Positions 8,530 through 43,133 of a stretch of DNA of 64,000 bases are shown in pieces; within the stretch, counting starts at the first letter, position 1; each line of letters begins with the position of its first letter. Both the position numbers and the translations under genes were made by a program. This DNA is from Escherichia phage vB_EcoS-26175I. The stretch lies in sequence record NC_133255.1. One strand, written 5' to 3'. The notes below the pieces were generated by a model that was given only the letters and a program-made list of their open reading frames with translations, was not told the DNA's origin and did not search any database.

Positions 8530-9140
8530 TAACGACCTCTAGCCTTATCTGCATCAATAGCTTCGAATACTTTCGTTAACATTTCTTCAAGCTCACCTTC
8601 TTTGCTAGGATTGCTCAAACGAATAGTATATGAGTTCCTAGAAACTCCGGAGTCTTCCTGTGCTCCGCGATCTTTAGCAAAGCTCATCATTGTAACGCCA
8701 GCTTTATTCCACTCGTCTACGCTAGACGCTTCCCCAAACTTATATGATTGCGTATTACTCACCACGCCACCACAAGGAATATTGTGCATATCCGACATTA
8801 ATCTTTTATCGGAGTTATTCAGCATTGCGATTGGTCCCGACTGCCACGGATCTCTAATAGTCACTGGAGTACTAGGGCGATTCACCTCAGTCTTCACGAG
8901 TTTGTACCCCGCATCGATCAGTGCATTAATCAGATTATCAGCCGGGATGCGAGCTGTGCCAAAGATAGCACGAGCATTCATGAGTTTAGCCTGAAATTCC
9001 TTGCAACCTTGAAGATCAGTGTGCAAAAACGACAGTTGCATAGATTTAAACTGTACTGTAGCAGTCAGATCTTTAAAGCTGTAATCCCATGTGTCGAGTT
9101 CATGATCTGCTACTACTTTAATGGTTTGTTGTGTAAACAT
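8529..9140 (-). CDS. hypothetical protein
   Basis: 203-aa ORF. Confidence 0.6.
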   Translation of the reverse strand: MFTQQTIKVVADHELDTWDYSFKDLTATVQFKSMQLSFLHTDLQGCKEFQAKLMNARAIFGTARIPADNLINALIDAGYKLVKTEVNRPSTPVTIRDPWQSGPIAMLNNSDKRLMSDMHNIPCGGVVSNTQSYKFGEASSVDEWNKAGVTMMSFAKDRGAQEDSGVSRNSYTIRLSNPSKEGELEEMLTKVFEAIDADKARGR

Positions 9141-9325
9141 TATTTATTCTCCAGTTTATCTAACAGCTTACGAGCTGCGATATTATGTTGTTTAAGTTCA
9201 CGATTGAGAATCTGGTTCTCACTAATTAATTCTAGATTCTTGGTATTAAGACTACTACAGCAAACCACTAATCCTAGAACTGCCACTAGAGACGCTACTA
9301 ATATAACGAGAAATAATATTTCCAT
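9140..9325 (-). CDS. small membrane protein
   Basis: 61-aa ORF with N-terminal transmembrane segment. Confidence 0.45.
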   Translation of the reverse strand: MEILFLVILVASLVAVLGLVVCCSSLNTKNLELISENQILNRELKQHNIAARKLLDKLENK

Positions 9326-9558
9326 TATTTAATTCCCATGTATCTTTTTAGGTATTCGATGAAGTCTTCAGCTTTATGCTCTTGACTGCCCTGAGCCACG
9401 AATAACTTTAGAACCTCACGCTGTTGTTTAAGAACAGAGACTTCTCTCCGCAATTTCACAGTATCGTCAATGATCTGGTTAGCATAACGAGTCTTGCGCA
9501 CAGCGGTATTGATAGCGAAGACTAGTGCGATTAGTAAAATAATTAATACATATTCCAT
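9325..9558 (-). CDS. small membrane protein
   Basis: 77-aa ORF with N-terminal transmembrane segment. Confidence 0.45.
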   Translation of the reverse strand: MEYVLIILLIALVFAINTAVRKTRYANQIIDDTVKLRREVSVLKQQREVLKLFVAQGSQEHKAEDFIEYLKRYMGIK

Positions 9559-9845
9559 CAGTTACTCCAGATTAGCATCCAGCTCTTGTCGAACGTGGCT
9601 GCTCTGTTAATTAATTCGCCCATAGAAACGTTATTGTTGTCTATGGCTTCTTGTACAAACTCTTTACCGAAATCATCTACTAGGTATTCTGTACCATTTA
9701 TAATAATCTTGTAGAGAGTTGGGACTAAAGGATGTTGATGATTAAGAGGACTCTCGTTAACAATTATCTCATTCCTTCCCCACGTCGTCTTGAACAGTTT
9801 GTGGGAGAGTAGAGCTAATGGGTTTGACCAGACTACGTACTCCAT
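9558..9845 (-). CDS. hypothetical protein (start uncertain)
   Basis: 95-aa ORF overlapping the upstream gene by about 77 nt. Confidence 0.35.
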   Translation of the reverse strand: MEYVVWSNPLALLSHKLFKTTWGRNEIIVNESPLNHQHPLVPTLYKIIINGTEYLVDDFGKEFVQEAIDNNNVSMGELINRAATFDKSWMLIWSN

Positions 9846-10715: not shown

Positions 10716-11124
10716 GGTAAAGATTTCCTGTATCAGTTGGAAGGAATGCCGACTGTGCCTTCGGCGGATGTTGTTTAGCGATCCAGTTGAAGATCAGTAC
10801 ACGGCTAGGAACGATATCAGTGTTATACCAGAAGTCATGAACCCAATGTCGTGCATCTTCGAACTTACCGAACTTATACGCTTTCTTAAACAGTTCAAAA
10901 CCAAAACAATCAGGTGCAAAATCTACATCACGATAAGGAATTACCTTAGAACCGGTGAGATCTTGAATCGCTGCATTAATCTCTGTATGCGAGAACTTCG
11001 TCTCATGGAAAGTATTAAAGAAGCGGTAATTAAAACGTCCGTTCGTTTCGACAAACAACTGGATGAATAAATCATTAAATTGGTCATCAAACCAGTAATT
11101 CTGTAATCTTTGCAGTGCTGTCAT
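10657..11124 (-). CDS. hypothetical protein
   Basis: 155-aa ORF. Confidence 0.5.
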   Translation of the reverse strand: MTALQRLQNYWFDDQFNDLFIQLFVETNGRFNYRFFNTFHETKFSHTEINAAIQDLTGSKVIPYRDVDFAPDCFGFELFKKAYKFGKFEDARHWVHDFWYNTDIVPSRVLIFNWIAKQHPPKAQSAFLPTDTGNLYHDTKEKSSARADEAVGEAD

Positions 11125-34844: not shown

Positions 34845-35354
34845 TTAATTATTTCGGGCATATTCCCCATGAAGTTTCTCTCTCAGTTGAATTAGAGCTT
34901 CATTTGCTGCTTCAGGAGTACTGTGCAGCCCTGCGGAGTATGACTTACCTTTAAACATTATTCTATCCTGCCACTGACCAGATGCTTTGTGGTAGGATAC
35001 TCCCTTAAATCCGCTAGTATTCCTAGAAGATTTACTAGCATTATGAGTATTAGTGGTACTATCCGCTGCTCTTAAATTTAAAGGATGTATGTTTAACTTA
35101 TTGCAGTCTTTATGATCAATCATTTCCGGCCTATACCCATAATATAGTATAAATACTATGATATGAGCTAAGTAATCTTGGTGATCAACGTTAACTCTGA
35201 TATACCCAGAGCTTTTGTGCAAAGATCCCGCAGGTTTATTGGCAAACTTAGTATTAAATATCTTCTCCTCTCTGGAGTTTCCGGAGAGCGGATTCCACAC
35301 CAGTACACCATCTTCTAAACGGAATCTATAAAGTATAGACTCATAGTCTAGCAT
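34845..35354 (-). CDS. HNH-AP2 homing endonuclease
   Basis: HNH core IDHKDCNKLNIHPLNLR plus AP2-type DNA-binding segment GVSYHKASGQWQ; 169 aa. Confidence 0.7.
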   Translation of the reverse strand: MLDYESILYRFRLEDGVLVWNPLSGNSREEKIFNTKFANKPAGSLHKSSGYIRVNVDHQDYLAHIIVFILYYGYRPEMIDHKDCNKLNIHPLNLRAADSTTNTHNASKSSRNTSGFKGVSYHKASGQWQDRIMFKGKSYSAGLHSTPEAANEALIQLREKLHGEYARNN

Positions 35355-35387
35355 AAATAGTTCCTAATCTTACAAATTTATGAATAT

Positions 35388-35416
35388 ATTATACAGAAAA
35401 TTTCGGCATTAAGCAA
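35388..35416 (-). promoter_or_regulatory. early sigma70 promoter (TTGCTT / TATAAT)
   Basis: Same module. Confidence 0.55.
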
Positions 35417-35424
35417 GTGAAATT

Positions 35425-35739
35425 TTACTGAACATTGCACTGATATACCTGTTTGATACGTGTCACTGACTTCTTAGTTGGGTTGATAGAAGAACCCTGC
35501 CACCAACGTGATTCTGAGCTGAGAACAGCACCAGGAACAGCTTGTTCTTTTGGCAGAACAATATCAAAACACTGTTCACCCATATTATCTTTAATGTGCG
35601 ACCAAATGTCTAGAGTAAATCGTTCTAGCTTATTACAAACTTGAACTTGACAAAGTTCCTGTTGTGGAGCAGCAAATACAGAAGTAGATACTAGAGTCAA
35701 TGCAAGTACAATGCGTTTCATATTTGATTCCTCTCTCAA
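35425..35739 (-). CDS. secreted Cys-containing protein (signal peptide)
   Basis: 104-aa ORF with N-terminal signal sequence. Confidence 0.5.
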   Translation of the reverse strand: MREESNMKRIVLALTLVSTSVFAAPQQELCQVQVCNKLERFTLDIWSHIKDNMGEQCFDIVLPKEQAVPGAVLSSESRWWQGSSINPTKKSVTRIKQVYQCNVQ

Positions 35740-35751
35740 ATTTATAAATAT

Positions 35752-35780
35752 ATTATACAGAAATTTTCTATATTAAGCAA
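35752..35780 (-). promoter_or_regulatory. early sigma70 promoter (TTGCTT / TATAAT)
   Basis: Same module. Confidence 0.55.
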
Positions 35781-35793
35781 GTGAAAATTTCTG

Positions 35794-35820
35794 TATAATA
35801 GCCCTCGCTTAGAGGGCTAT
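35794..35820 (-). terminator. hairpin TAGCCCTC..GAGGGCTA within a conserved TATAATAGCC-hairpin element
   Basis: Just downstream of the pnuC stop; the same element recurs at 47315-47336. Confidence 0.4.
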
Positions 35821-35827
35821 AGCTACT

Positions 35828-36520
35828 TTATTTGTTAACGCGTACAAAGTATCCTTTATAGGCTCCCATAATAGAGTTACCTAAGAATACTAGCCACATT
35901 GCTAGGATTGCATAAGATGCACCTGTAGATTGAGTAGTTACAAGCCAAATGTACACAGTACCAATGTTAATAGCAATCCAGATCAGCCACTGCTCGGCAT
36001 ACTGCTTAACCATAAGCCACATAGCGATCACACTACCTACCGCAGTAAATGCATCCAACATTGGGAATGGATCAGCCGTAGTAGCTAAGAAACTACCATA
36101 CCCTAACGTGGCTACTGCTAGAATCCCTAGAGTCAGCAGAGCTTGGACTTTAGTCAGAATCTTAGTTGGAACATCTGGCAGATTACTTGGCTTATTTTTA
36201 TGCCATAAGTACATTCCATAAAACTGCATAGGAACGTAGTATAGCAGGTTTAGTGCAGCGTTACCATAAAGATCTGCGTTTAAAGCTGTAATACCATAGG
36301 TAAGAACACCAACTAAGCCCCAAATATAGTTAGAAACACGTCCTTTAGCAACCAAAATAACACAAACTACGTTGGTTATCGCAGTAGCCCAATCTAGAGC
36401 TGTACCATTATAGTTTGCTAAACTAATAAAGGCGACTGCCATAAACAGCCACAGATATTCCAAAGGTTTCCAGTTTTTAAAGTCATTTACAAGATAGTTA
36501 GTCATATTAAAACTCTCCAA
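35828..36520 (-). CDS. pnuC: nicotinamide riboside transporter PnuC
   Basis: 230-aa polytopic membrane protein with PnuC-like Trp/Gly-rich helices; overlaps nadR. Confidence 0.7.
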   Translation of the reverse strand: MESFNMTNYLVNDFKNWKPLEYLWLFMAVAFISLANYNGTALDWATAITNVVCVILVAKGRVSNYIWGLVGVLTYGITALNADLYGNAALNLLYYVPMQFYGMYLWHKNKPSNLPDVPTKILTKVQALLTLGILAVATLGYGSFLATTADPFPMLDAFTAVGSVIAMWLMVKQYAEQWLIWIAINIGTVYIWLVTTQSTGASYAILAMWLVFLGNSIMGAYKGYFVRVNK

Positions 36521-37613
36521 CGTTAAAGTGATGAATCAGCCAGTCTACTGCGTTTACTGCTTCGTCCATACGAACTTTGTAGTCCGGGGAGTCGATGTAA
36601 ACAGTACGTCCTTCAGGGAACTGATTTGGAAATTCTTTCTTCATCTGCTCGAACAGTTCAGAAGTAATTGAACGATCGGAGTTAATACGTAAACCATCAT
36701 CTACCCACTTGACAGTAGGCGCTAGAACAATTACTAAATCGTAATGTTCTTCTTTTGCAATTGCTGTAACCACAGGATTCTTACGATGTTCATAAAGTCT
36801 GTGGTAGAACTCAGTAATAAAAGCATTTGTATCCACAAACATGATCTTATTTGCAGTACGTTCTGCTTCAAACTCTAGCTCTTTGTGTCTGAACGCAATT
36901 TTACTATAATCTTCGCTGGTAAGCAGATTTTCGTTACCAACTAGATCAACTTCACAATACGTTCGACCATATTCTTCTACCCACGAAGTGTTGTATAGCT
37001 TCGCAAGGTATTTTGTTAAAGTAGTCTTTCCCGAGCTTTCAGTCCCAATGAGTACAACCTTACGCACGTAATCTTTACGAACTACGCTAGGAAGAAACTC
37101 CCAATACTTCATAAGATCATTACGAATCATTGTAGCTGAGATTGGAACACGAGTCCGATCAGAATCTACAATATAATGACCAAACTTCGGCAGATATTTC
37201 TTATATTCTGCATCATAGTCTAGTTCGCTAGAGAAAATGGTGATCTCAGGCAAATGTCCATAATTTTCATTAAGGATTCTAGCATATTCCGGCCAACCAT
37301 TCGGATATTCAGGAATATCATCTTCAATAATGTACTCTACCGAAACGTGCTCAATATCCGCGTAAGTTTGTTCTAACCAACGAAGACGATTCTTTAACTG
37401 TAATACTTCCTGATCACGTGTGTTCTGCTTATCCAGCCAACGATTATCATGACTAACTACAATAATAACTCGTTCACACATAGTTGCTGCTGTGTTTATT
37501 AGGTTAATATGACCACGCGTTAATGGTGCGAACTTACCAATTACTAGACCAGTCTTAATCATGTTTGATTCCTCTCTCAAATTTATAAATATATTATACA
37601 GAGAATTTAGCAT
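36507..37613 (-). CDS. nadR: bifunctional NadR-like NMN adenylyltransferase / ribosylnicotinamide kinase (no HTH domain)
   Basis: N-terminal GKFAPLTRGH nucleotidyltransferase motif and C-terminal Walker A GTESSGKTT; 368 aa. Confidence 0.8.
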   Translation of the reverse strand: MLNSLYNIFINLREESNMIKTGLVIGKFAPLTRGHINLINTAATMCERVIIVVSHDNRWLDKQNTRDQEVLQLKNRLRWLEQTYADIEHVSVEYIIEDDIPEYPNGWPEYARILNENYGHLPEITIFSSELDYDAEYKKYLPKFGHYIVDSDRTRVPISATMIRNDLMKYWEFLPSVVRKDYVRKVVLIGTESSGKTTLTKYLAKLYNTSWVEEYGRTYCEVDLVGNENLLTSEDYSKIAFRHKELEFEAERTANKIMFVDTNAFITEFYHRLYEHRKNPVVTAIAKEEHYDLVIVLAPTVKWVDDGLRINSDRSITSELFEQMKKEFPNQFPEGRTVYIDSPDYKVRMDEAVNAVDWLIHHFNVGEF

Positions 37614-37621
37614 TCAAGCAA
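37593..37621 (-). promoter_or_regulatory. early sigma70 promoter (TTGCTT / TATAAT) for nadR-pnuC
   Basis: Same module. Confidence 0.6.
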
Positions 37622-37825
37622 TCGAATTTTTAAACTTTTTAGTGGAAAAATCTCAAGGCATTTAGTGGTAGCACGTTGTTGCTGCAATAATAGTATATGA
37701 TTCTAAAGAATTAAATACTAAAGACCTTAGTTGAATAACTTATGGGATTTTCTTTTACCTTAAATACAGAAAAGCCCGCGCTCTCGGAGGAAACGCGGGC
37801 TTGTTTCGAAGATTACGTGGAACTA

Positions 37826-38770
37826 TTACTTATTACGCATATCCATAATCATTTGACCATCGTAGCCAGTACCGACAACAGTCTGCGGTACACCACCTTG
37901 GTATTTTTCAGCACGAAGCATTTCAACTTCCAGCTGCTTCCAACGAATCATTTCAGGAGTAATGGTACGTTGCAGAGCGGCGTTAGCTTCAGCTTCTTTC
38001 TTAGCTGCGTACAGTTTAGCATCTGCGTCACGTTCGTTAGCTACTGCCATGTTTTCACGAGCGGAACGATCTGCCTCAGCTTGCTTAACTTTCTGCTGTG
38101 CTTCTTGTTCAACACGAGCCAGTTCAGCTTTTGCAGCGTTAACTTGTTCTTCACGAACTTTAGTGTTCTGTACCTGTTCCATGATTACCGGTGGCAGAGT
38201 AATATCCTGAAGGAATACTTGCTTAACCGTGTAACCATAAGGACGCGCGTACTCTTCTACCTCTTGCTGAATAGCAGTTTGCAGTTGAGCCTGAATCTTA
38301 GCGTCGAACAGATCTTGTGCTTTTGGTACGGACTTACCAAACTCACGAATCGTAGACAGCATCTTCTCTTCAACGTATTTGTTCAGAGCCTGATCCTGAG
38401 TACCTGCGTTAACACGGTTCATAGGAGCTTTAGCACCATCAAACTGCAACATAACGGTAATGTCAACAGTAGACTTAAACTTATCCTGGCTAGGAACCTG
38501 AAGTTTATCCAGTTTCATGGAAATATCTTTCGTACTAAAAGTATCAAAAGAAGCAAATGGGTTAACAATATGGAAGCCTGGCAATACAGGATTAGGGCTA
38601 ACTTTACCCAGGAAGGTTTGAGTCTTAACAGTACCATCCTGAACAACTGTATAGGAATTGAGAGCCAGAATAAGAGCACCAAGACCAACAGCAGCACCAA
38701 CACCCCAACGTTTAATAGTACGAATTACTTTTTGCTCAGAAGTCAGTTCTTTAGTGTTTTTAGTAAACAT
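37826..38770 (-). CDS. SPFH / band-7 (prohibitin / HflC-like) membrane protein
   Basis: N-terminal transmembrane segment, SPFH-like core, Ala/Glu-rich coiled coil; 314 aa. Confidence 0.6.
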   Translation of the reverse strand: MFTKNTKELTSEQKVIRTIKRWGVGAAVGLGALILALNSYTVVQDGTVKTQTFLGKVSPNPVLPGFHIVNPFASFDTFSTKDISMKLDKLQVPSQDKFKSTVDITVMLQFDGAKAPMNRVNAGTQDQALNKYVEEKMLSTIREFGKSVPKAQDLFDAKIQAQLQTAIQQEVEEYARPYGYTVKQVFLQDITLPPVIMEQVQNTKVREEQVNAAKAELARVEQEAQQKVKQAEADRSARENMAVANERDADAKLYAAKKEAEANAALQRTITPEMIRWKQLEVEMLRAEKYQGGVPQTVVGTGYDGQMIMDMRNK

Positions 38771-38781
38771 ATATTTCCTTA

Positions 38782-38982
38782 TTATTTAGAAGAGTTATCT
38801 ACTACAGTTACTTTAGTTGCAGAAATAAATAGGCTAGCATCCACAGCAAATTCAGGAGCTTTGATATCTCCATTATGAAATATGACTATACCGGAGACTA
38901 CTTCAAATGCTAGTGCTGTAACATCGGTGGTCTTTAGTTGTGAATGTTCACCTACTACTTTTACTATATATCGTGTTTTCAC
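38782..38982 (-). CDS. hypothetical protein
   Basis: 66-aa ORF. Confidence 0.4.
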   Translation of the reverse strand: MKTRYIVKVVGEHSQLKTTDVTALAFEVVSGIVIFHNGDIKAPEFAVDASLFISATKVTVVDNSSK

Positions 38983-39008
38983 TTTATTTTCCTAGCAGTT
39001 AATAAAAT

Positions 39009-39083
39009 TGGCCGAGGTGACAGGATTCGAACCTGCATAAAGGAATTTAGAAGACTCCTGCCTATCCCTTAGACTACACCCCG
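39009..39083 (-). tRNA. tRNA-Arg (anticodon UCU)
   Basis: Acceptor CGGGGTG/CACCTCG, loop CTTCTAA, T-arm GCAGG-TTCGAAT-CCTGT. Confidence 0.55.
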
Positions 39084-39091
39084 AGAATAAA

Positions 39092-39601
39092 TTACTTAAT
39101 GATTTCGTTCAGTTTGGTTTGGCTTTCTAGCGCTGCTTTAGCTGATTTCTCAGCATCCCTAGCAGCACGTCGTGCTTTAGAGTCAATCAATAGCTTGTCA
39201 TACTTGATATTAACGAACTCTTTAATATCATGGTAGAAACGTTGATGTGCCATGTATTCTTGTGCATCTGCATCGTAACAGCGCATATAGAAGTAATCAC
39301 TAGGCTCTCCACGAAGTGTACGCTCTAGAATCTGAGGTCGATAACGACGTAATGTATCTTTCGCCATTTTTATTTCATCAGTTTCTTCACCAAGCTGAAC
39401 TAGGTGATAAAGACGAGTATTGTCGATGTAATCCAAAGCTACGCTAAAGTATTCACCTTCTCGAAGATTGTATCCTGTAATCTCACTCATTTTCTCACGA
39501 GCTTGATCAAGTGTCAGGCGTTCTGGAAAATGTGCTATATGCAGAATACGAGGGCAACACATTTCTTGATGATCAAAGATACAAGTTGTTCCTAGATTCA
39601 T
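39092..39601 (-). CDS. hypothetical protein
   Basis: 169-aa ORF. Confidence 0.55.
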   Translation of the reverse strand: MNLGTTCIFDHQEMCCPRILHIAHFPERLTLDQAREKMSEITGYNLREGEYFSVALDYIDNTRLYHLVQLGEETDEIKMAKDTLRRYRPQILERTLRGEPSDYFYMRCYDADAQEYMAHQRFYHDIKEFVNIKYDKLLIDSKARRAARDAEKSAKAALESQTKLNEIIK

Positions 39602-40560
39602 ATTGATTCCTTTTGTTAGGTATTTTTAAGAACTCTCGTAAAAGTCCTTAAAGATACCCGGCGGTAGGTAGGGTCAGCCCCCTCAGATTAAGCTCTGCAG
39701 CCCTTCCGTCAGACAATATCTTCCAGTTTAAGTCAGGGTGACTTTGTGGTTATTCAGCTAAGGCTGATCGGCAGCTCTTAGGTCATGACTCCTCGTCGCT
39801 CTTTACTCACCGGCTAGGAAGTTATCTCGAGTTCTTCCTAGCTCTTTAGTCGTGCCATTAAGGTGCCTTCTAAGAGACTTACCTTTTCCCACTTTCGATT
39901 TGGGCATGTATCAGGTAAGGGTAGCCAAATCAGCATCCTAGTCCTACGGGGTCTCATCAAATTACATACCACCGCTTTTCGATATGTAATGCCCATGTCT
40001 ATACGGGAGAAGAAAATGGGCATCTTTCTCTTCGTCTGATAGCTTGAAAAACGACTCCTCATGGAGGAAAAACTTCACTATCTAGGCTAAAGCCTAAAGT
40101 TCTTCTTTAATCCGGCAAAGCAAAACCGTAGTATATACTTTTCAGGAATGGTTGGTTAGTCTGGAACCAACTACCGCGTGGTTTTGGCAGTGCACAGCTG
40201 CCTGCGATTGCTTCGCCATTAGAAGCACCAGTTATCCAACTCTTTCCGACCGTGGGACTCGAACCCACATCTTCAGGCGGTGAAGCCCTAATAATACCTA
40301 TTATACTAGGACGGCAGTGTTGTTACATAAGTGGTTTCGGCACCCCACTAACATAAACTAGAGAAGAGTTTACGAGATTTCGGGACAGCTCCCGAGTTTT
40401 CCGCAGATTTTCAGTTCCCTATCAATAGCAATAAGCGTTAGCTCGTAGCCTCTCTCAGAGTACTTACTAGTCTCCAACTCACCGACTCTATTCAGTGGAA
40501 TAGCTATCCTAGTAGGAGTCACTAAACTCACTCAGCGTAATCGGCTCGCTGTTCTCTAAT
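39602..40560 (-). ncRNA. about 1 kb promoter-driven ORF-poor, relatively GC-rich stretch containing a tRNA-like 3' element (T-arm GTGGG-TTCGAGT-CCCAC at 40252-40268); candidate structured non-coding RNA
   Basis: Early promoter immediately upstream; only a junk-like 74-aa ORF inside. Confidence 0.3.
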
Positions 40561-40570
40561 TTATGAATCT

Positions 40571-40599
40571 ATTATACAGAATTTTGAAGCGTTTAGCAA
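40571..40599 (-). promoter_or_regulatory. early sigma70 promoter (TTGCTA / TATAAT)
   Basis: Same module; reads into the ORF-poor region. Confidence 0.55.
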
Positions 40600-41281: not shown

Positions 41282-41749
41282 TTAAGTTTTCTTAACCACA
41301 GGCTTGTAGAACGTATGGCCTTGAATCTTCGTTGTTTTCTTAAACTTCTTTGTCCAGTACGGTTTATCTTTACCACTATGGAAGTATAACGCTCCATGTG
41401 TTGGATCTTGTGGTAAATCAACGTAGTATATCACTCTAGCTAAATTCTTAGCAACTTGCCAAGCCTCATCGGTTTTATCAACTTTTGGTCTCTTGGCCAC
41501 CCAAGAGAACTGGTTAGACTGATATACTACTTTACAGTAAGAATCAGGAAAAGTACCAGAGTTAACACGGTTTTTAGTAACCTGTGCAACTGCGATCATT
41601 CCTTTAGTGCCCTCACCTCGTGCTTCGAAGTAGATATTTTTTGCAATGCAATCAATCTGCTTTGAGTCGTAGGTCGCATGACTATTGAAGCTATAGGTTA
41701 GGGCAGCTATTAAAAGCAAAGCTGCCTTCATTTTATTTACTCCGGCCAA
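41282..41749 (-). CDS. SleB-like cell wall hydrolase with signal peptide
   Basis: Signal peptide plus NIYFEARGE...AVAQV..NR motif of the SleB / Hydrolase_2 family; 155 aa. Confidence 0.6.
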   Translation of the reverse strand: MAGVNKMKAALLLIAALTYSFNSHATYDSKQIDCIAKNIYFEARGEGTKGMIAVAQVTKNRVNSGTFPDSYCKVVYQSNQFSWVAKRPKVDKTDEAWQVAKNLARVIYYVDLPQDPTHGALYFHSGKDKPYWTKKFKKTTKIQGHTFYKPVVKKT

Positions 41750-42054
41750 TCGTACTCAATACGATTAGGGCTTTCTTGATACCCTTCGTCAAGCAAATCA
41801 TTGCGCATGTTCTGCTTAGCTACAGGGTTCGAGGTTACTAGTACCACTTTCTTGGGTCTCTGACCAAATTCTAGGAGTAAACGAAGAATTTGATAACCTT
41901 CCATACCATCTACAGCCAGATCGTTATCCATATAAACGAAATGACCCGTGGTATCGGTTGTATTCAGAAACTCAATAGCGGCTTCGGGGGTTCGAATGAT
42001 AATGTCCATTCCATGGAGGTTACGCACATCATCAATCAGAATATGAAAAATCAT
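41737..42054 (-). CDS. hypothetical protein
   Basis: 105-aa ORF. Confidence 0.5.
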   Translation of the reverse strand: MIFHILIDDVRNLHGMDIIIRTPEAAIEFLNTTDTTGHFVYMDNDLAVDGMEGYQILRLLLEFGQRPKKVVLVTSNPVAKQNMRNDLLDEGYQESPNRIEYDWPE

Positions 42055-42494: not shown

Positions 42495-43133
42495 TTACTC
42501 TACTTCGATAAAAGTAGAGGCGTTGGACTCAGACAGAACAAAGTCAACGTTGGTTGCAAAGTCCTGGTATTCTTCGTCGTGTTGCTTGATCAGCTTTTCC
42601 AGCTCCAGTGGATCGATCAGGAACGGAGTGTTCTTGAGTTCCAGCAGGTTAAGCTGCATCTTAACTTCATCCTCGGAAGTCTTCTTGTCGCGGGTAGCCA
42701 TGGTATCCTGCAAACGCTCATACTTAGCATCAAACTGAGCTTTCTGAGTGTTAAACTTAACAGTAGCAGCATGGAACTGCTTACGCATGTTAGCCAGCAA
42801 CTGAGCTTTGAGTTCCATAGAACGCTTAGCTTCGATTGCTTCCGCAACAGTCATAGAGCGCGAACCGATCTCTACAACAGTTTCAGCATTGCTCTTGATC
42901 AGCGCAGCTTTCAGACGATCACGCTGGGACATCATATCCAGCAGAGACTGGAAATCAGTCTTAATACGGGTAGACAGAGCATCTACTTCGATTGCAGCGC
43001 CAACGACAACTTGGTTCTTGTCCTTACCTTCACCAACAGCGATCAAAAGCTGTTGTTCAGTAGCTTTACGGATTTTAGCTTCCAGAGACTTGATAGTTGC
43101 CAGAGCACGAGTTTTAGAGATACGAGTAGTCAT
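42495..43133 (-). CDS. coiled-coil protein
   Basis: 212-aa ORF. Confidence 0.6.
   Translation of the reverse strand: MTTRISKTRALATIKSLEAKIRKATEQQLLIAVGEGKDKNQVVVGAAIEVDALSTRIKTDFQSLLDMMSQRDRLKAALIKSNAETVVEIGSRSMTVAEAIEAKRSMELKAQLLANMRKQFHAATVKFNTQKAQFDAKYERLQDTMATRDKKTSEDEVKMQLNLLELKNTPFLIDPLELEKLIKQHDEEYQDFATNVDFVLSESNASTFIEVE

What the first reader, a model, noticed from the sequence alone, without database searches (positions are those of the whole stretch)
37826..38770. SPFH / band-7 membrane protein encoded next to the NAD+ salvage operon
A 314-aa prohibitin/HflC-like protein with N-terminal membrane anchor and long Ala/Glu coiled coil is unusual phage cargo. SPFH proteins scaffold membrane proteases and microdomains; in a phage it could modulate host FtsH/HflKC activity or membrane integrity.
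Basis: partly seen in the sequence, partly recalled or inferred. Interest (0 to 1): 0.45.

Follow-up and report, generated by a model that had tools for sequence, protein, structure and literature searches.

The report
Phage SPFH membrane-scaffold protein, T5.080 ortholog
This is a real but already-annotated SPFH/band-7 membrane protein that many large lytic phages carry; its function is still unknown, it is not needed for phage T5 growth in the laboratory, and it is not part of the neighbouring NAD+ rescue operon.

Summary
The ORF (37826-38770, minus strand, 314 aa) is real and is a genuine SPFH/Band_7 protein (Pfam 70 bits; full-length fold matches to erlin, prohibitin, HflK/C, stomatin and QmcA cages). 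The window is a T5-like phage, 100% identical over the 5-kb region tested to Escherichia phage vB_EcoS-26175. The gene is the ortholog of T5.080, labelled "band 7" in GenBank since 2005.

It is not unusual cargo: 722 phage records in several families carry it, and SPFH folds recur across viruses. The common "lipoprotein" label is wrong here because the protein has no cysteine. Charge bias across 41 homologs predicts an N-in anchor with the SPFH domain and coiled coil facing the periplasm.

A strong terminator separates it from the NadR/PnuC operon, which is the published two-gene NARP3 counter-defence module. T5 itself has the SPFH gene without NARP3. CRISPRi-ART scored T5.080 "Not Fit", so it is dispensable in the laboratory.

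The most likely role is a homo-oligomeric SPFH ring or cage on the inner membrane with an accessory, condition-dependent function. The FtsH/HflKC idea is topologically possible but untested.

One lead: orthologs lie beside or near NARP3, NARP2 or NARP1-like genes in three phage families. This is only marginally above chance.

The parts
37826..38770 (-). SPFH/Band_7 protein CDS, 314 aa plus stop; ortholog of T5.080 and bas30_0085
   Evidence: ORF; Pfam Band_7, 70 bits; phrog_200 E=4e-85; 91% identical to T5.080 and 99.4% to bas30_0085
38708..38770 (-). N-terminal tail, residues 1-21, rich in Lys/Arg; predicted cytoplasmic
   Evidence: 6 K/R against 2 D/E before the TM; mean net charge +2.46 on the N-flank against +0.17 on the C-flank over 41 homologs
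38648..38707 (-). Single transmembrane anchor, residues about 22-41; no lipobox and no Cys anywhere in the protein
   Evidence: Kyte-Doolittle maximum 1.68-1.8 at residues 24-27, Cys count 0; helix 11-37 in the AF2 model
38198..38647 (-). SPFH alpha/beta core, residues about 42-191, including the invariant VPSQDK motif at 92-97
   Evidence: AF2 secondary structure; Pfam alignment 50-224; invariant columns
37904..38191 (-). Ala/Glu-rich long helix (residues 194-269) plus a second helix (272-289); these correspond to the CC1 and CC2 wall and roof helices of SPFH cages
   Evidence: AF2 model; full-length Foldseek alignments of 270-304 columns to erlin, PHB, HflK/C and QmcA cage subunits
37829..37903 (-). 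Conserved C-terminal tail, residues 290-314 (G292, P295, T297, G300 invariant); disordered in the monomer model; candidate inter-subunit cap strand
   Evidence: Invariant columns; pLDDT below 50 for residues 291-314; the cap role is an inference from solved SPFH cages
38775..38780 (-). AAGGAA ribosome-binding site for the SPFH gene
   Evidence: Read directly from the sequence
37772..37802 (-). Intrinsic terminator ending the SPFH transcription unit: 12-bp stem with 7 G-C pairs, followed by a T-run. It contains the T5 nick-site consensus Pu-pGCGC
   Evidence: Terminator scan; orthologous to T5's annotated 'efficient bidirectional rho-independent terminator', with a compensatory stem change; nick 3 annotation
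38782..38982 (-). 66-aa ORF (phrog_11609), 11 nt upstream in the same transcription unit; restricted to one lineage, not a general partner
   Evidence: found in only 193 T5-like records against 722 for SPFH; absent from T5; no Pfam or PDB similarity, no NfeD match
39009..39083 (-). tRNA-Arg (anticodon TCT), upstream in the same unit as in T5
   Evidence: ARAGORN; Rfam tRNA 49.3 bits; T5 synteny
39092..39601 (-). 169-aa ORF of unknown function, upstream in the same unit
   Evidence: no Pfam, PHROG or PDB match
40571..40599 (-). Candidate sigma-70 promoter (TTGCTA-17-TATAAT, 10 of 12) for the unit that ends with SPFH. Its position matches T5 early promoter 'P 16-17'
   Evidence: Consensus scan only; T5 annotation
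36507..37562 (-). Neighbour, separate unit: NadR-like bifunctional NMNAT/ribosylnicotinamide kinase without the HTH domain; ortholog of Bas30_86 (NARP3)
   Evidence: bas30_0086 synteny; function shown in PMC13464706
35828..36505 (-). Neighbour: PnuC nicotinamide riboside transporter; ortholog of Bas30_87 (NARP3)
   Evidence: PMC13464706
37588..37617 (-). Candidate promoter (TTGAAT-18-TATATT, 9 of 12) for NadR-PnuC, downstream of the SPFH terminator
   Evidence: Consensus scan only

Best explanation
The gene encodes a bona fide SPFH (stomatin/prohibitin/flotillin/HflK-C) family inner-membrane protein and is the ortholog of phage T5 gene T5.080. It is expressed from the early, accessory, tRNA-rich region as the last gene of its own transcription unit. 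It is anchored by one N-terminal transmembrane helix with a short Lys/Arg-rich cytoplasmic tail, so the SPFH domain, the roughly 110-angstrom Ala/Glu helix and the conserved C-terminal tail face the periplasm. That is the same orientation as HflK/C and as erlin and prohibitin in their compartments. Like every structurally solved protein with this full architecture, it most probably assembles into a large homo-oligomeric ring or cage that fences off a patch of the host inner membrane. This would stabilise, sequester or shield membrane proteins or lipids during infection. The function is accessory and condition-dependent, not part of the core lytic programme. It does not depend on the adjacent NadR/PnuC (NARP3) operon. 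Shown here: family membership, architecture, conservation, transcription-unit boundary and dispensability of the T5 ortholog. Inferred: topology, oligomeric cage and the membrane-scaffolding role. The client or target is unknown.
For: Band_7 profile hit, 70 bits. The AF2 model (pLDDT 76.8) has TM, SPFH core, long helix, second helix and tail. Foldseek gives probability 1.0 over 270-304 columns to the erlin1/2, prohibitin, HflK/C, stomatin, QmcA and flotillin cage subunits. N-flank net charge is +2.46 against +0.17 on the C-flank across 41 homologs. The protein has no Cys. The C-terminal tail is invariant although disordered in the monomer model. The 12-bp terminator directly after the stop codon is conserved with the annotated T5 terminator through a compensatory change. 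T5 keeps the gene without NadR/PnuC. The gene is conserved at 55-100% identity in 722 phage records from several families. T5.080 is 'Not Fit' in CRISPRi-ART (7 guides, p=0.85; PMC11879866 supplementary file 16). Cellular homologs are stand-alone genes with no NfeD, FtsH or second SPFH gene nearby, consistent with a homo-oligomer.
Against: No experiment addresses localisation, topology, oligomeric state or partners of any member of this family. Topology rests on the positive-inside rule only. The best PDB match by sequence is QmcA, whose SPFH domain is cytoplasmic. A monomer model cannot show cage formation. Strong conservation across phage families implies selection that the laboratory knockdown screen did not reveal, so the actual function may be more specific than generic scaffolding.
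Confidence: 0.6

Rival explanations
1. HflK/C mimic: the phage protein forms a periplasm-facing cage that captures or displaces host FtsH, or competes with HflK/C. This would change degradation of phage or host membrane proteins.
For: The predicted N-in/C-out topology equals that of HflK/C. HflK/C-FtsH structures are among the full-length fold matches (7vhq, 9cz2, 7wi3). From established knowledge, the SPFH proteins with this orientation (HflK/C, prohibitin, erlin) all partner with membrane AAA+ protease or ERAD machinery. No NfeD partner is present, unlike the stomatin/QmcA class.
Against: The NCBIfam HflK/HflC models do not match. Identity to HflK/C is only 17-19%, no closer than to erlin, PHB or stomatin. 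No FtsH-contact residues could be assessed. Knockdown of T5.080 has no fitness effect in E. coli K-12, which has FtsH and HflKC. Cellular homologs are not linked to ftsH.
Confidence: 0.15
2. Counter-defence factor: the cage protects or seals the inner membrane against membrane-disrupting abortive-infection effectors, or traps them. It travels in anti-defence islands together with NAD+ reconstitution pathways.
For: Orthologs lie 0.2 kb from NARP3 (this phage, Bas30), 0.2 kb from the NARP2-type Nmnat/Nudix gene (KP15/RB43 group) and 1.9-2.8 kb from an Adps/Namat-like pair (Grimontviridae). The NAD enzymes are non-orthologous and the flanking DNA is unrelated. P is about 0.002 under uniform placement. 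The surrounding T5 region carries tRNAs, one of which is reported to neutralise PARIS (abstract of PMC11464382). A gene that is dispensable in a defence-poor laboratory host yet conserved is typical of counter-defence genes.
Against: P rises to 0.04-0.08 if accessory genes are confined to a third or a quarter of the genome, and the lineages were defined post hoc. Most T5-like phages, Aeh1, Vibrio phages and several metagenomic lineages have SPFH with no NAD gene within 10 kb. Other accessory genes (SleB-like hydrolase, orf212) co-localise as well, pointing to a generic mosaic island. There is no PADLOC match and no experiment.
Confidence: 0.13
3. Component or helper of the NAD+ salvage module: the SPFH protein scaffolds PnuC or NadR at the membrane.
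For: Immediate adjacency to NadR-PnuC here and in about 98 related genomes. Recurrent proximity to NAD genes in other families.
Against: A strong terminator and a separate promoter candidate lie between the genes. NARP3 is fully active as a two-gene module without the SPFH gene (PMC13464706). T5 and most Tequintavirus-like phages have SPFH but no NadR/PnuC. In T4-like phages the neighbour is a soluble Nmnat/Nudix enzyme with no transporter. The SPFH domain is predicted to be periplasmic, while NadR is cytoplasmic.
Confidence: 0.04
4. Lipoprotein or superinfection-exclusion factor, as the PHROG and GenBank 'lipoprotein' label suggests, by analogy with T5 Llp.
For: phrog_200 and many GenBank records say 'lipoprotein'. 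The domain is predicted to face the periplasm. One Morganella-phage homolog has a lipobox-like IGSC motif.
Against: The protein has no cysteine, so lipid modification is impossible. Only 1 of 41 homologs has a lipobox-like motif. It shows no similarity to Llp. Exclusion activity is untested.
Confidence: 0.04

Closest known systems
Phage T5 gene T5.080 (AAX12012.1 'putative transmembrane protein, IPR001107 band 7'; YP_006908.1 'lipoprotein') and BASEL phage Bas30 gene bas30_0085
   Same: Orthologs at 91% and 99.4% identity. Same length, same position after tRNA-Arg, same terminator after the stop codon.
   Different: T5 lacks the 66-aa and 169-aa upstream ORFs and has T5.077-079 on the opposite strand in place of NadR-PnuC. 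None of these proteins has been studied experimentally beyond a knockdown screen.
E. coli HflK/HflC (FtsH-associated SPFH cage; PDB 7vhq, 7wi3, 9cz2)
   Same: N-terminal TM anchor, predicted periplasm-facing SPFH domain, long CC1 and CC2 helices, full-length fold match.
   Different: HflK/C is an obligate hetero-oligomer of two paralogs, whereas this is a single gene. Identity is 17-19%. The HflK/HflC NCBIfam models do not match. No link to FtsH has been shown.
Erlin1/2 and prohibitin1/2 cages (PDB 9vvj, 9o9u, 8rrh, 9o9z)
   Same: Best structural matches (E=2e-14 to 5e-13). Same type-II anchoring with the SPFH domain on the non-cytosolic side. Similar length of about 300 aa. A relative is labelled CDD 'SPFH_like_u3' in GenBank.
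   Different: These are eukaryotic hetero-oligomers. Identity is 15-20%. Nothing suggests shared clients.
E. coli QmcA-YbbJ (SPFH-NfeD pair; PDB 8z5g)
   Same: Best PDB match by sequence (E=3.7e-5). Single-gene homo-oligomeric 26-mer cage with a similar Ala/Glu-rich helix.
   Different: QmcA's TM starts at residue 1 with no basic N-tail, and its SPFH domain is cytoplasmic (established knowledge; the alignment offset is visible). QmcA is paired with an NfeD protein, and no NfeD-like gene is present here or next to the cellular homologs.
Stand-alone chromosomal SPFH genes of Methylococcaceae, Methylophagaceae, Desulfocapsaceae (32-40% identity) and Morganella/Providencia (55-59%)
   Same: Same subfamily, length and N-terminal layout. 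Full-length alignments.
   Different: They sit in housekeeping neighbourhoods that vary by lineage and are uncharacterised. The Morganellaceae copies nest inside the phage clade in an NJ tree, suggesting phage-to-host transfer (no bootstrap support).

Membership tests
SPFH / Band 7 superfamily (Pfam PF01145) | Significant match to the Band_7 profile above the curated cutoff | tested here: met
   70.2 bits against a cutoff of 23.6, E=2.9e-19, residues 50-224 covering profile positions 12-176 of 176
SPFH / Band 7 superfamily (Pfam PF01145) | SPFH alpha/beta fold followed by long coiled-coil helices, as in the solved cage-forming members | tested here: met
   AF2 model with pLDDT 76.8. Foldseek probability 1.0 with 270-304 aligned columns to erlin, PHB, HflK/C, stomatin, QmcA and flotillin
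SPFH / Band 7 superfamily (Pfam PF01145) | Membrane attachment through an N-terminal hydrophobic segment | tested here: met
   A single hydrophobic helix at about residues 22-41, conserved in 41 homologs. This is a prediction only
SPFH / Band 7 superfamily (Pfam PF01145) | Assembly into a large ring or cage oligomer | not testable with these tools
   Only monomer prediction is available. The conserved C-terminal tail is compatible with a cap
HflK/HflC (FtsH modulator) | Match to the HflK or HflC equivalog models | tested here: not met
   No NCBIfam family matched at E<=0.01
HflK/HflC (FtsH modulator) | Two paralogous subunits encoded together | tested here: not met
   There is a single SPFH gene in the unit, and its neighbours are unrelated
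HflK/HflC (FtsH modulator) | Periplasm-facing type-II topology | tested here: inconclusive
   The positive-inside rule favours N-in/C-out (+2.46 against +0.17 over 41 sequences). There is no experimental test
HflK/HflC (FtsH modulator) | Physical association with FtsH | not testable with these tools
   Needs pull-down, two-hybrid or complex modelling
Bacterial lipoprotein (the PHROG and GenBank label) | Signal peptide ending in a lipobox with an invariant Cys | tested here: not met
   The protein contains no Cys. Only 1 of 41 homologs has a lipobox-like motif
SPFH-NfeD operon (stomatin/QmcA/YqiK type) | Adjacent NfeD-family partner gene | tested here: not met
   No NfeD match in the 66-aa and 169-aa neighbours even at E<=10. 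None next to the cellular homologs
NARP3 NAD+ reconstitution module | Co-transcribed with NadR/PnuC and required for their activity | tested here: not met
   A terminator lies between the genes. NARP3 is defined and active as a two-gene module (PMC13464706). SPFH is present without NARP3 in T5
Known anti-phage defence or counter-defence protein families (PADLOC) | Match to a PADLOC model | tested here: not met
   No match

The most novel reading that the evidence does not exclude
The phage SPFH cage is a counter-defence or anti-abortive-infection device that shields the inner membrane from, or traps, membrane-disrupting immune effectors. On this reading it has been repeatedly co-located with all three known NAD+ reconstitution pathways (NARP1-like, NARP2, NARP3) in three unrelated phage families because the two functions together cover the two main suicide outputs of bacterial immunity: NAD+ depletion and membrane collapse.
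Probability: 0.1. Interest if true: 0.7.

Novelty: already known. Interest (0 to 1): 0.3.

Why it matters
As an annotation this adds little, because identical proteins are already deposited as SPFH/band-7 proteins. The open question is functional. A roughly 300-aa SPFH protein is kept at 55-100% identity in hundreds of large virulent phages of at least three families. It has been exchanged between them (77-81% identity between T5-like and T4-like phages), yet it is dispensable in the laboratory and nobody knows what it does. The new points here are a corrected label (not a lipoprotein), a predicted periplasm-facing topology, a cellular sister clade, a clear separation from NARP3, and a testable lead in the recurrent placement beside NAD+ reconstitution genes. 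The BASEL phage Bas30, already used for NARP3 work, carries a 99.4% identical copy (bas30_0085), so deletion experiments are straightforward.

Tried and rejected
1. NfeD-like partner: the 66-aa ORF 11 nt upstream was tested against Pfam at E<=10 and against PDB sequences, with no match. It occurs in only 193 closely related genomes and is absent from T5 and the T4-like phages. Rejected as a general partner.

2. Single ancestral 'SPFH+NMNAT' block shared by T5-like and T4-like phages: NadR and the KP15 Nmnat/Nudix protein share only the HxGH motif (30% over 33 aa), and the intergenic DNA is unrelated. Rejected; the adjacencies are independent.

3. Conserved neighbour of the cellular homologs: clustering ORFs around 61 bacterial loci gave only lineage-specific synteny (ABC-F ATPase, YcxB, DUF2782, trp-accD-folC and others). 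No FtsH, NfeD, NAD or phage genes appeared.

4. Defence-system membership: no PADLOC match.

5. Assignment to a named SPFH subfamily: no NCBIfam match, and Foldseek E-values for erlin, PHB, HflK/C, stomatin and QmcA are too close to discriminate.

6. Literature: searches for SPFH with phage T5, phage-encoded, superinfection exclusion, anti-phage and 'T5.080' found only genome-annotation mentions. The HIDEN-SEQ preprint covers no phage that carries this gene.

7. T5 deletion mutant: AY587007 turned out to be the wild-type ATCC strain, so classical deletion-mutant evidence was not obtained.

8. AAA ATPase upstream of SPFH in Grimontviridae-like phages: it is soluble, restricted to the ~90-kb phage groups, and has no homolog in the window. 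Not a general partner.
Full report
OBSERVATION. An AAGGAA ribosome-binding site sits 5-10 nt upstream. Over the 5-kb stretch tested (35000-40000) the window is 100% identical to Escherichia phage vB_EcoS-26175II-V and about 95-97% identical to Epseptimavirus-type Salmonella phages (T5-like, Demerecviridae). The protein matches Pfam Band_7 (PF01145) at 70.2 bits against a cutoff of 23.6, E=2.9e-19, and PHROG phrog_200 at E=4e-85. The two genes downstream on the same strand are a NadR-like NMN adenylyltransferase/ribosylnicotinamide kinase and a PnuC transporter. Every descriptive element of the finding is therefore correct.

ANATOMY. The protein has one hydrophobic segment at about residues 22-41, preceded by a Lys/Arg-rich tail (6 K/R against 2 D/E). 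It contains no cysteine. An AlphaFold2 model built on 34 homologs (mean pLDDT 76.8) shows the following:
- a TM helix at residues 11-37
- an alpha/beta core at 40-191
- one uninterrupted 76-residue helix at 194-269, where residues 205-275 hold 18 Ala and 11 Glu out of 71
- a second helix at 272-289
- a tail at 291-314 that is disordered in the monomer yet contains invariant residues G292, P295, T297 and G300

Foldseek against the PDB gives probability-1.0 matches over 270-304 columns to the subunits of every solved SPFH cage. Erlin1/2 is on top (E=2e-14), followed by prohibitin, HflK/C, stomatin, QmcA and flotillin, and then the major vault protein. Identity to each is only 13-20%. By sequence alone the best PDB matches are QmcA (3.7e-5) and the prohibitins (about 1e-4). 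No NCBIfam model matches, including those for HflK and HflC. The protein is thus a genuine SPFH-superfamily member with the complete cage-subunit architecture, but it belongs to none of the named subfamilies.

TOPOLOGY AND THE 'LIPOPROTEIN' LABEL. PHROGs, RefSeq T5 (T5.080) and many GenBank records call this family 'lipoprotein'. Lipid modification needs a lipobox cysteine, and this protein has none. Only 1 of 41 family members has a lipobox-like motif. Across those 41 sequences the 15 residues before the TM carry a mean net charge of +2.46, against +0.17 for the 15 residues after it. By the positive-inside rule this predicts an N-in/C-out orientation, which places the SPFH domain and coiled coil in the periplasm. 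HflK/C has that orientation, and erlin and prohibitin have the topological equivalent. QmcA does not: its TM begins at residue 1 (the alignment offset is visible) and its SPFH domain is cytoplasmic. This is a prediction and has not been measured.

TRANSCRIPTION UNIT. About 20 nt after the stop codon lies a 12-bp-stem hairpin with 7 G-C pairs followed by a T-run (37802-37772, minus strand). It aligns with the element that the T5 RefSeq record annotates as an 'efficient bidirectional rho-independent transcription terminator', and the stem differs by a compensatory change. A promoter-like site (37617-37588) follows, just upstream of the probable NadR start at Met18, coordinate 37562. Upstream of the SPFH gene, on the same strand, come the following:
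- a 66-aa ORF (11-nt gap)
- tRNA-Arg(TCT)
- a 169-aa ORF
- about 1 kb of non-coding sequence containing a tRNA-like element
- a 10-of-12 sigma-70 consensus site at 40599-40571, at the position of T5 early promoter 'P 16-17'

The SPFH gene is therefore the last gene of its own early unit and is not co-transcribed with NadR-PnuC.

HOW COMMON IT IS. tblastn finds the protein in 722 of 50,697 phage records. These include T5-like phages (90-100% identity), T4-like Slopekvirus, Karamvirus and RB43-type phages (77-82%), Grimontviridae and 7-11-like phages (about 73-75%), Aeromonas T4-like phages (about 61-65%) and Vibrio phages (31-43%). T5 itself carries it as T5.080. A 2005 T5 record already reads 'putative transmembrane protein; IPR001107: band 7 protein'. 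The T4-like copies (RB43ORF139c, 44RRORF098c, Aeh1ORF064c) were listed as SPFH/Band 7 in 2006 (PMC1524935). An exhaustive HMMER scan of 1.84 billion cluster representatives finds 35 clusters at E<=1e-30 and 174 at E<=1e-10. SPFH-fold proteins form 31 BFVD clusters, including Rhizobium and Streptomyces phages and many giant viruses. 'Unusual phage cargo' is therefore not supported.

CELLULAR RELATIVES. A scan of 185,579 species genomes found chromosomal homologs in Morganella and Providencia (55-59% identity). It also found them in Methylococcaceae, Methylophagaceae, Desulfocapsaceae, a Myxococcota MAG and others (32-40%). Their neighbourhoods are housekeeping and lineage-specific. In Morganella the gene lies between TetR/ADH genes and a HlyD/ABC exporter. 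In Methylophagaceae the order is trpBA, accD, folC, SPFH, then an FAD oxidoreductase. Methylococcaceae have DUF2782, YcxB and an ABC-F ATPase nearby. None has NfeD, FtsH, a second SPFH paralog, NAD genes or phage genes. In a neighbour-joining tree without bootstrap support, the phage proteins form one clade that is sister to the methylotroph clade, and the Morganellaceae copies nest inside the phage clade. The family thus looks like a stand-alone, presumably homo-oligomeric SPFH lineage that phages captured and then exchanged among themselves.

RELATION TO THE NAD+ OPERON. The neighbouring genes are orthologs of Bas30_86 and Bas30_87. Bas30 is phage TrudiRoth, and bas30_0085 is the SPFH ortholog at 99.4% identity, annotated 'hypothetical protein'. 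A 2026 study names this pair NARP3 and shows that it imports nicotinamide riboside and rebuilds NAD+. Expressed as a two-gene module, it overcomes Sir2-HerA and DSR1 (PMC13464706). That paper does not mention the SPFH gene. Four facts argue that SPFH is not part of NARP3: the terminator between the genes, the self-sufficiency of the two-gene module, the presence of SPFH without NadR/PnuC in T5 and in about 25 Tequintavirus-like loci, and the predicted periplasmic location.

A RECURRENT NEIGHBOURHOOD (a lead, not a result).
- In the KP15, RB43 and RB16 group of T4-like phages, the SPFH ortholog is followed 183-245 nt later by the Nmnat/Nudix gene that forms half of NARP2.
- In Grimontviridae (7-11, pSal-SNUABM-01), an adjacent Prs-like plus Nampt-like pair lies 1.9-2.8 kb downstream. 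That adjacency is the defining architecture of NARP1 (10.1101/2024.02.11.579819). The same pair lies 5-8 kb away in a second ~90-kb phage group.
- The NAD enzymes are non-orthologous and the flanking DNA is unrelated, so the adjacencies arose independently.
- KP15 and RB43 even show the same layout: stop codon, GC-rich hairpin, consensus TTGACA-N17-TATAAT promoter, then the NAD gene.

With six lineages that carry both gene types and three of them within 3 kb, chance gives P of about 0.002 under uniform placement. That rises to 0.04-0.08 if accessory genes are confined to a third or a quarter of the genome, and the lineages were delimited after seeing the data. Other accessory genes also recur near SPFH. 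A SleB-type cell-wall hydrolase does so in four lineages, and a homolog of the window's 212-aa ORF does so in two. The conservative reading is a mosaic accessory island. A functional link to counter-defence remains possible but unproven.

FUNCTIONAL DATA. No paper in the searchable library reports an experiment on any phage SPFH protein. The only data point is the CRISPRi-ART transcriptome-wide knockdown of T5, where T5.080 scored 'Not Fit' (7 guides, mean -4.28, p=0.85; PMC11879866 supplementary file 16). The ortholog is therefore dispensable on laboratory E. coli.

MECHANISM (committed view). The most likely picture, at about 0.6, is as follows. An early-expressed, type-II-anchored SPFH protein assembles, like every solved protein with this architecture, into a large homo-oligomeric ring or cage on the periplasmic face of the inner membrane. 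There it compartmentalises or stabilises membrane components during infection, and it provides a conditional advantage that laboratory conditions do not reveal.
- Shown: family membership, architecture, conservation, transcription-unit boundary and dispensability.
- Inferred: topology, oligomeric cage and scaffolding role.
- Unknown: the client.

The alternatives are specific FtsH/HflKC interference (about 0.15), a counter-defence or membrane-protection role (about 0.13), a role in NARP3 (about 0.04) and a lipoprotein or exclusion role (about 0.04).

VERDICT. This is a correct observation of an ordinary, already annotated accessory gene. Novelty is 'already known'. Interest is modest at 0.3, and it rests on the unexplained conservation and the NARP-neighbourhood lead.

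Noticed in passing
window 35828-37562 (-); L002 5008-6069; L003 6852-8906; L037-L050: SPFH orthologs lie beside or near genes of all three described phage NAD+ reconstitution pathways in three phage families. NARP3 (NadR+PnuC) is at 0.2 kb here and in Bas30. The NARP2-type Nmnat/Nudix gene is at 0.2 kb in the KP15/RB43 group. A NARP1-like Prs+Nampt pair is at 1.9-2.8 kb in Grimontviridae. The adjacencies are of independent origin. Rough P is 0.002 under uniform placement and 0.04-0.08 if accessory genes cluster.
   Followed up: partly
window 41282-41749 (-); L031 11401-11850; L032/L035; L047: A SleB-type cell-wall hydrolase (Pfam Hydrolase_2) with an apparent N-terminal signal peptide lies within 0.5-2.5 kb of the SPFH gene in three lineages and about 6.5 kb away in a fourth. 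The hydrolases are only 31-40% identical to each other and sit at different relative positions. If the signal peptide is real, both proteins would act in the periplasm.
   Followed up: partly
window 42495-43133 (-): A 212-aa ORF, the ortholog of T5.085. RefSeq calls it 'tail fiber protein', while its 30%-identical homolog in pSal-SNUABM-01 is called 'septicolysin-like'. It has no Pfam match and also recurs about 1 kb from SPFH in Grimontviridae. The annotations conflict.
   Followed up: partly
L003 2707-3915; L047 8710-9915; L032/L035 about 8710-9750: In Grimontviridae-like ~90-kb phages, a soluble 402-aa AAA-family ATPase (PF00004, no TM, no protease domain) sits directly upstream of the SPFH gene. 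The adjacency is kept although the ATPases are only 29-30% identical between the two groups. The window has no homolog. This is intriguing because cellular SPFH cages partner with AAA+ proteases.
   Followed up: partly
window 40244-40315 (-): A tRNA-like gene with anticodon TCA (UGA-reading). ARAGORN calls it 'tRNA-SeC' and it scores 33 bits against Rfam tRNA (cutoff 29). It lies in the ~1 kb non-coding stretch that T5 annotates as stable 'RNAX' or a pseudo-tRNA. It could be a suppressor tRNA or a decoy.
   Followed up: partly
window about 37778-37782 within the terminator 37772-37802 (-): The T5 'major single-strand nick 3 (32.6%)' consensus Pu-pGCGC falls inside the terminator hairpin just downstream of the SPFH gene and is conserved in the window. 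The hairpin may therefore serve both as a terminator and as a nick site.
   Followed up: partly
window 37826-38770 (-); phrog_200; YP_006908.1 and many GenBank records: The widespread 'lipoprotein' annotation of this family is wrong for this protein (no Cys) and for 40 of 41 homologs examined (no lipobox).
   Followed up: yes
L081-L093 (Providencia, Morganella chromosomes): Chromosomal SPFH genes at 55-59% identity, in non-prophage contexts, nest inside the phage clade in an NJ tree. This may be phage-to-host transfer and domestication in Morganellaceae.
   Followed up: partly
L080 (NZ_JBHSCL010000010.1, 'Flagellimonas marina', 178,077-bp contig): The contig carries a 76%-identical SPFH gene that clusters with Klebsiella T4-like phages, and its length matches a Slopekvirus/Karamvirus-type genome. 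It is probably a phage contig mis-binned in a bacterial assembly.
   Followed up: no
window 36507-37613 (-): The mechanical NadR ORF starts at 37613, but homolog alignments and related annotations start at Met18 (37562). The protein aligns to NadR model positions 54-407 of 411, so it lacks the N-terminal HTH repressor domain.
   Followed up: partly
window 37742-38878 (+): A 378-aa ORF on the strand opposite the SPFH gene. It looks low-complexity and Ser/Phe/Leu-rich by eye. I read it as an antisense artefact of the Ala/Glu/Lys-rich coding strand, but it was not searched or tested.
   Followed up: no
window 34845-35354 (-) and 41737-42054 (-): An HNH_3 + AP2 homing-endonuclease gene lies between PnuC and the tRNA block, and a cREC_REC (cyclic-phosphate-processing receiver) domain protein lies next to the cell-wall hydrolase.
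   Followed up: no
L002 4826-5007; L042 about 10800-11045: In KP15 and RB43, a short ORF that appears to encode a hydrophobic peptide (MNIKQIVL...) lies between the SPFH terminator/promoter and the Nmnat/Nudix gene. It is not listed in the KP15 annotation and was read by eye from the alignment.
   Followed up: no
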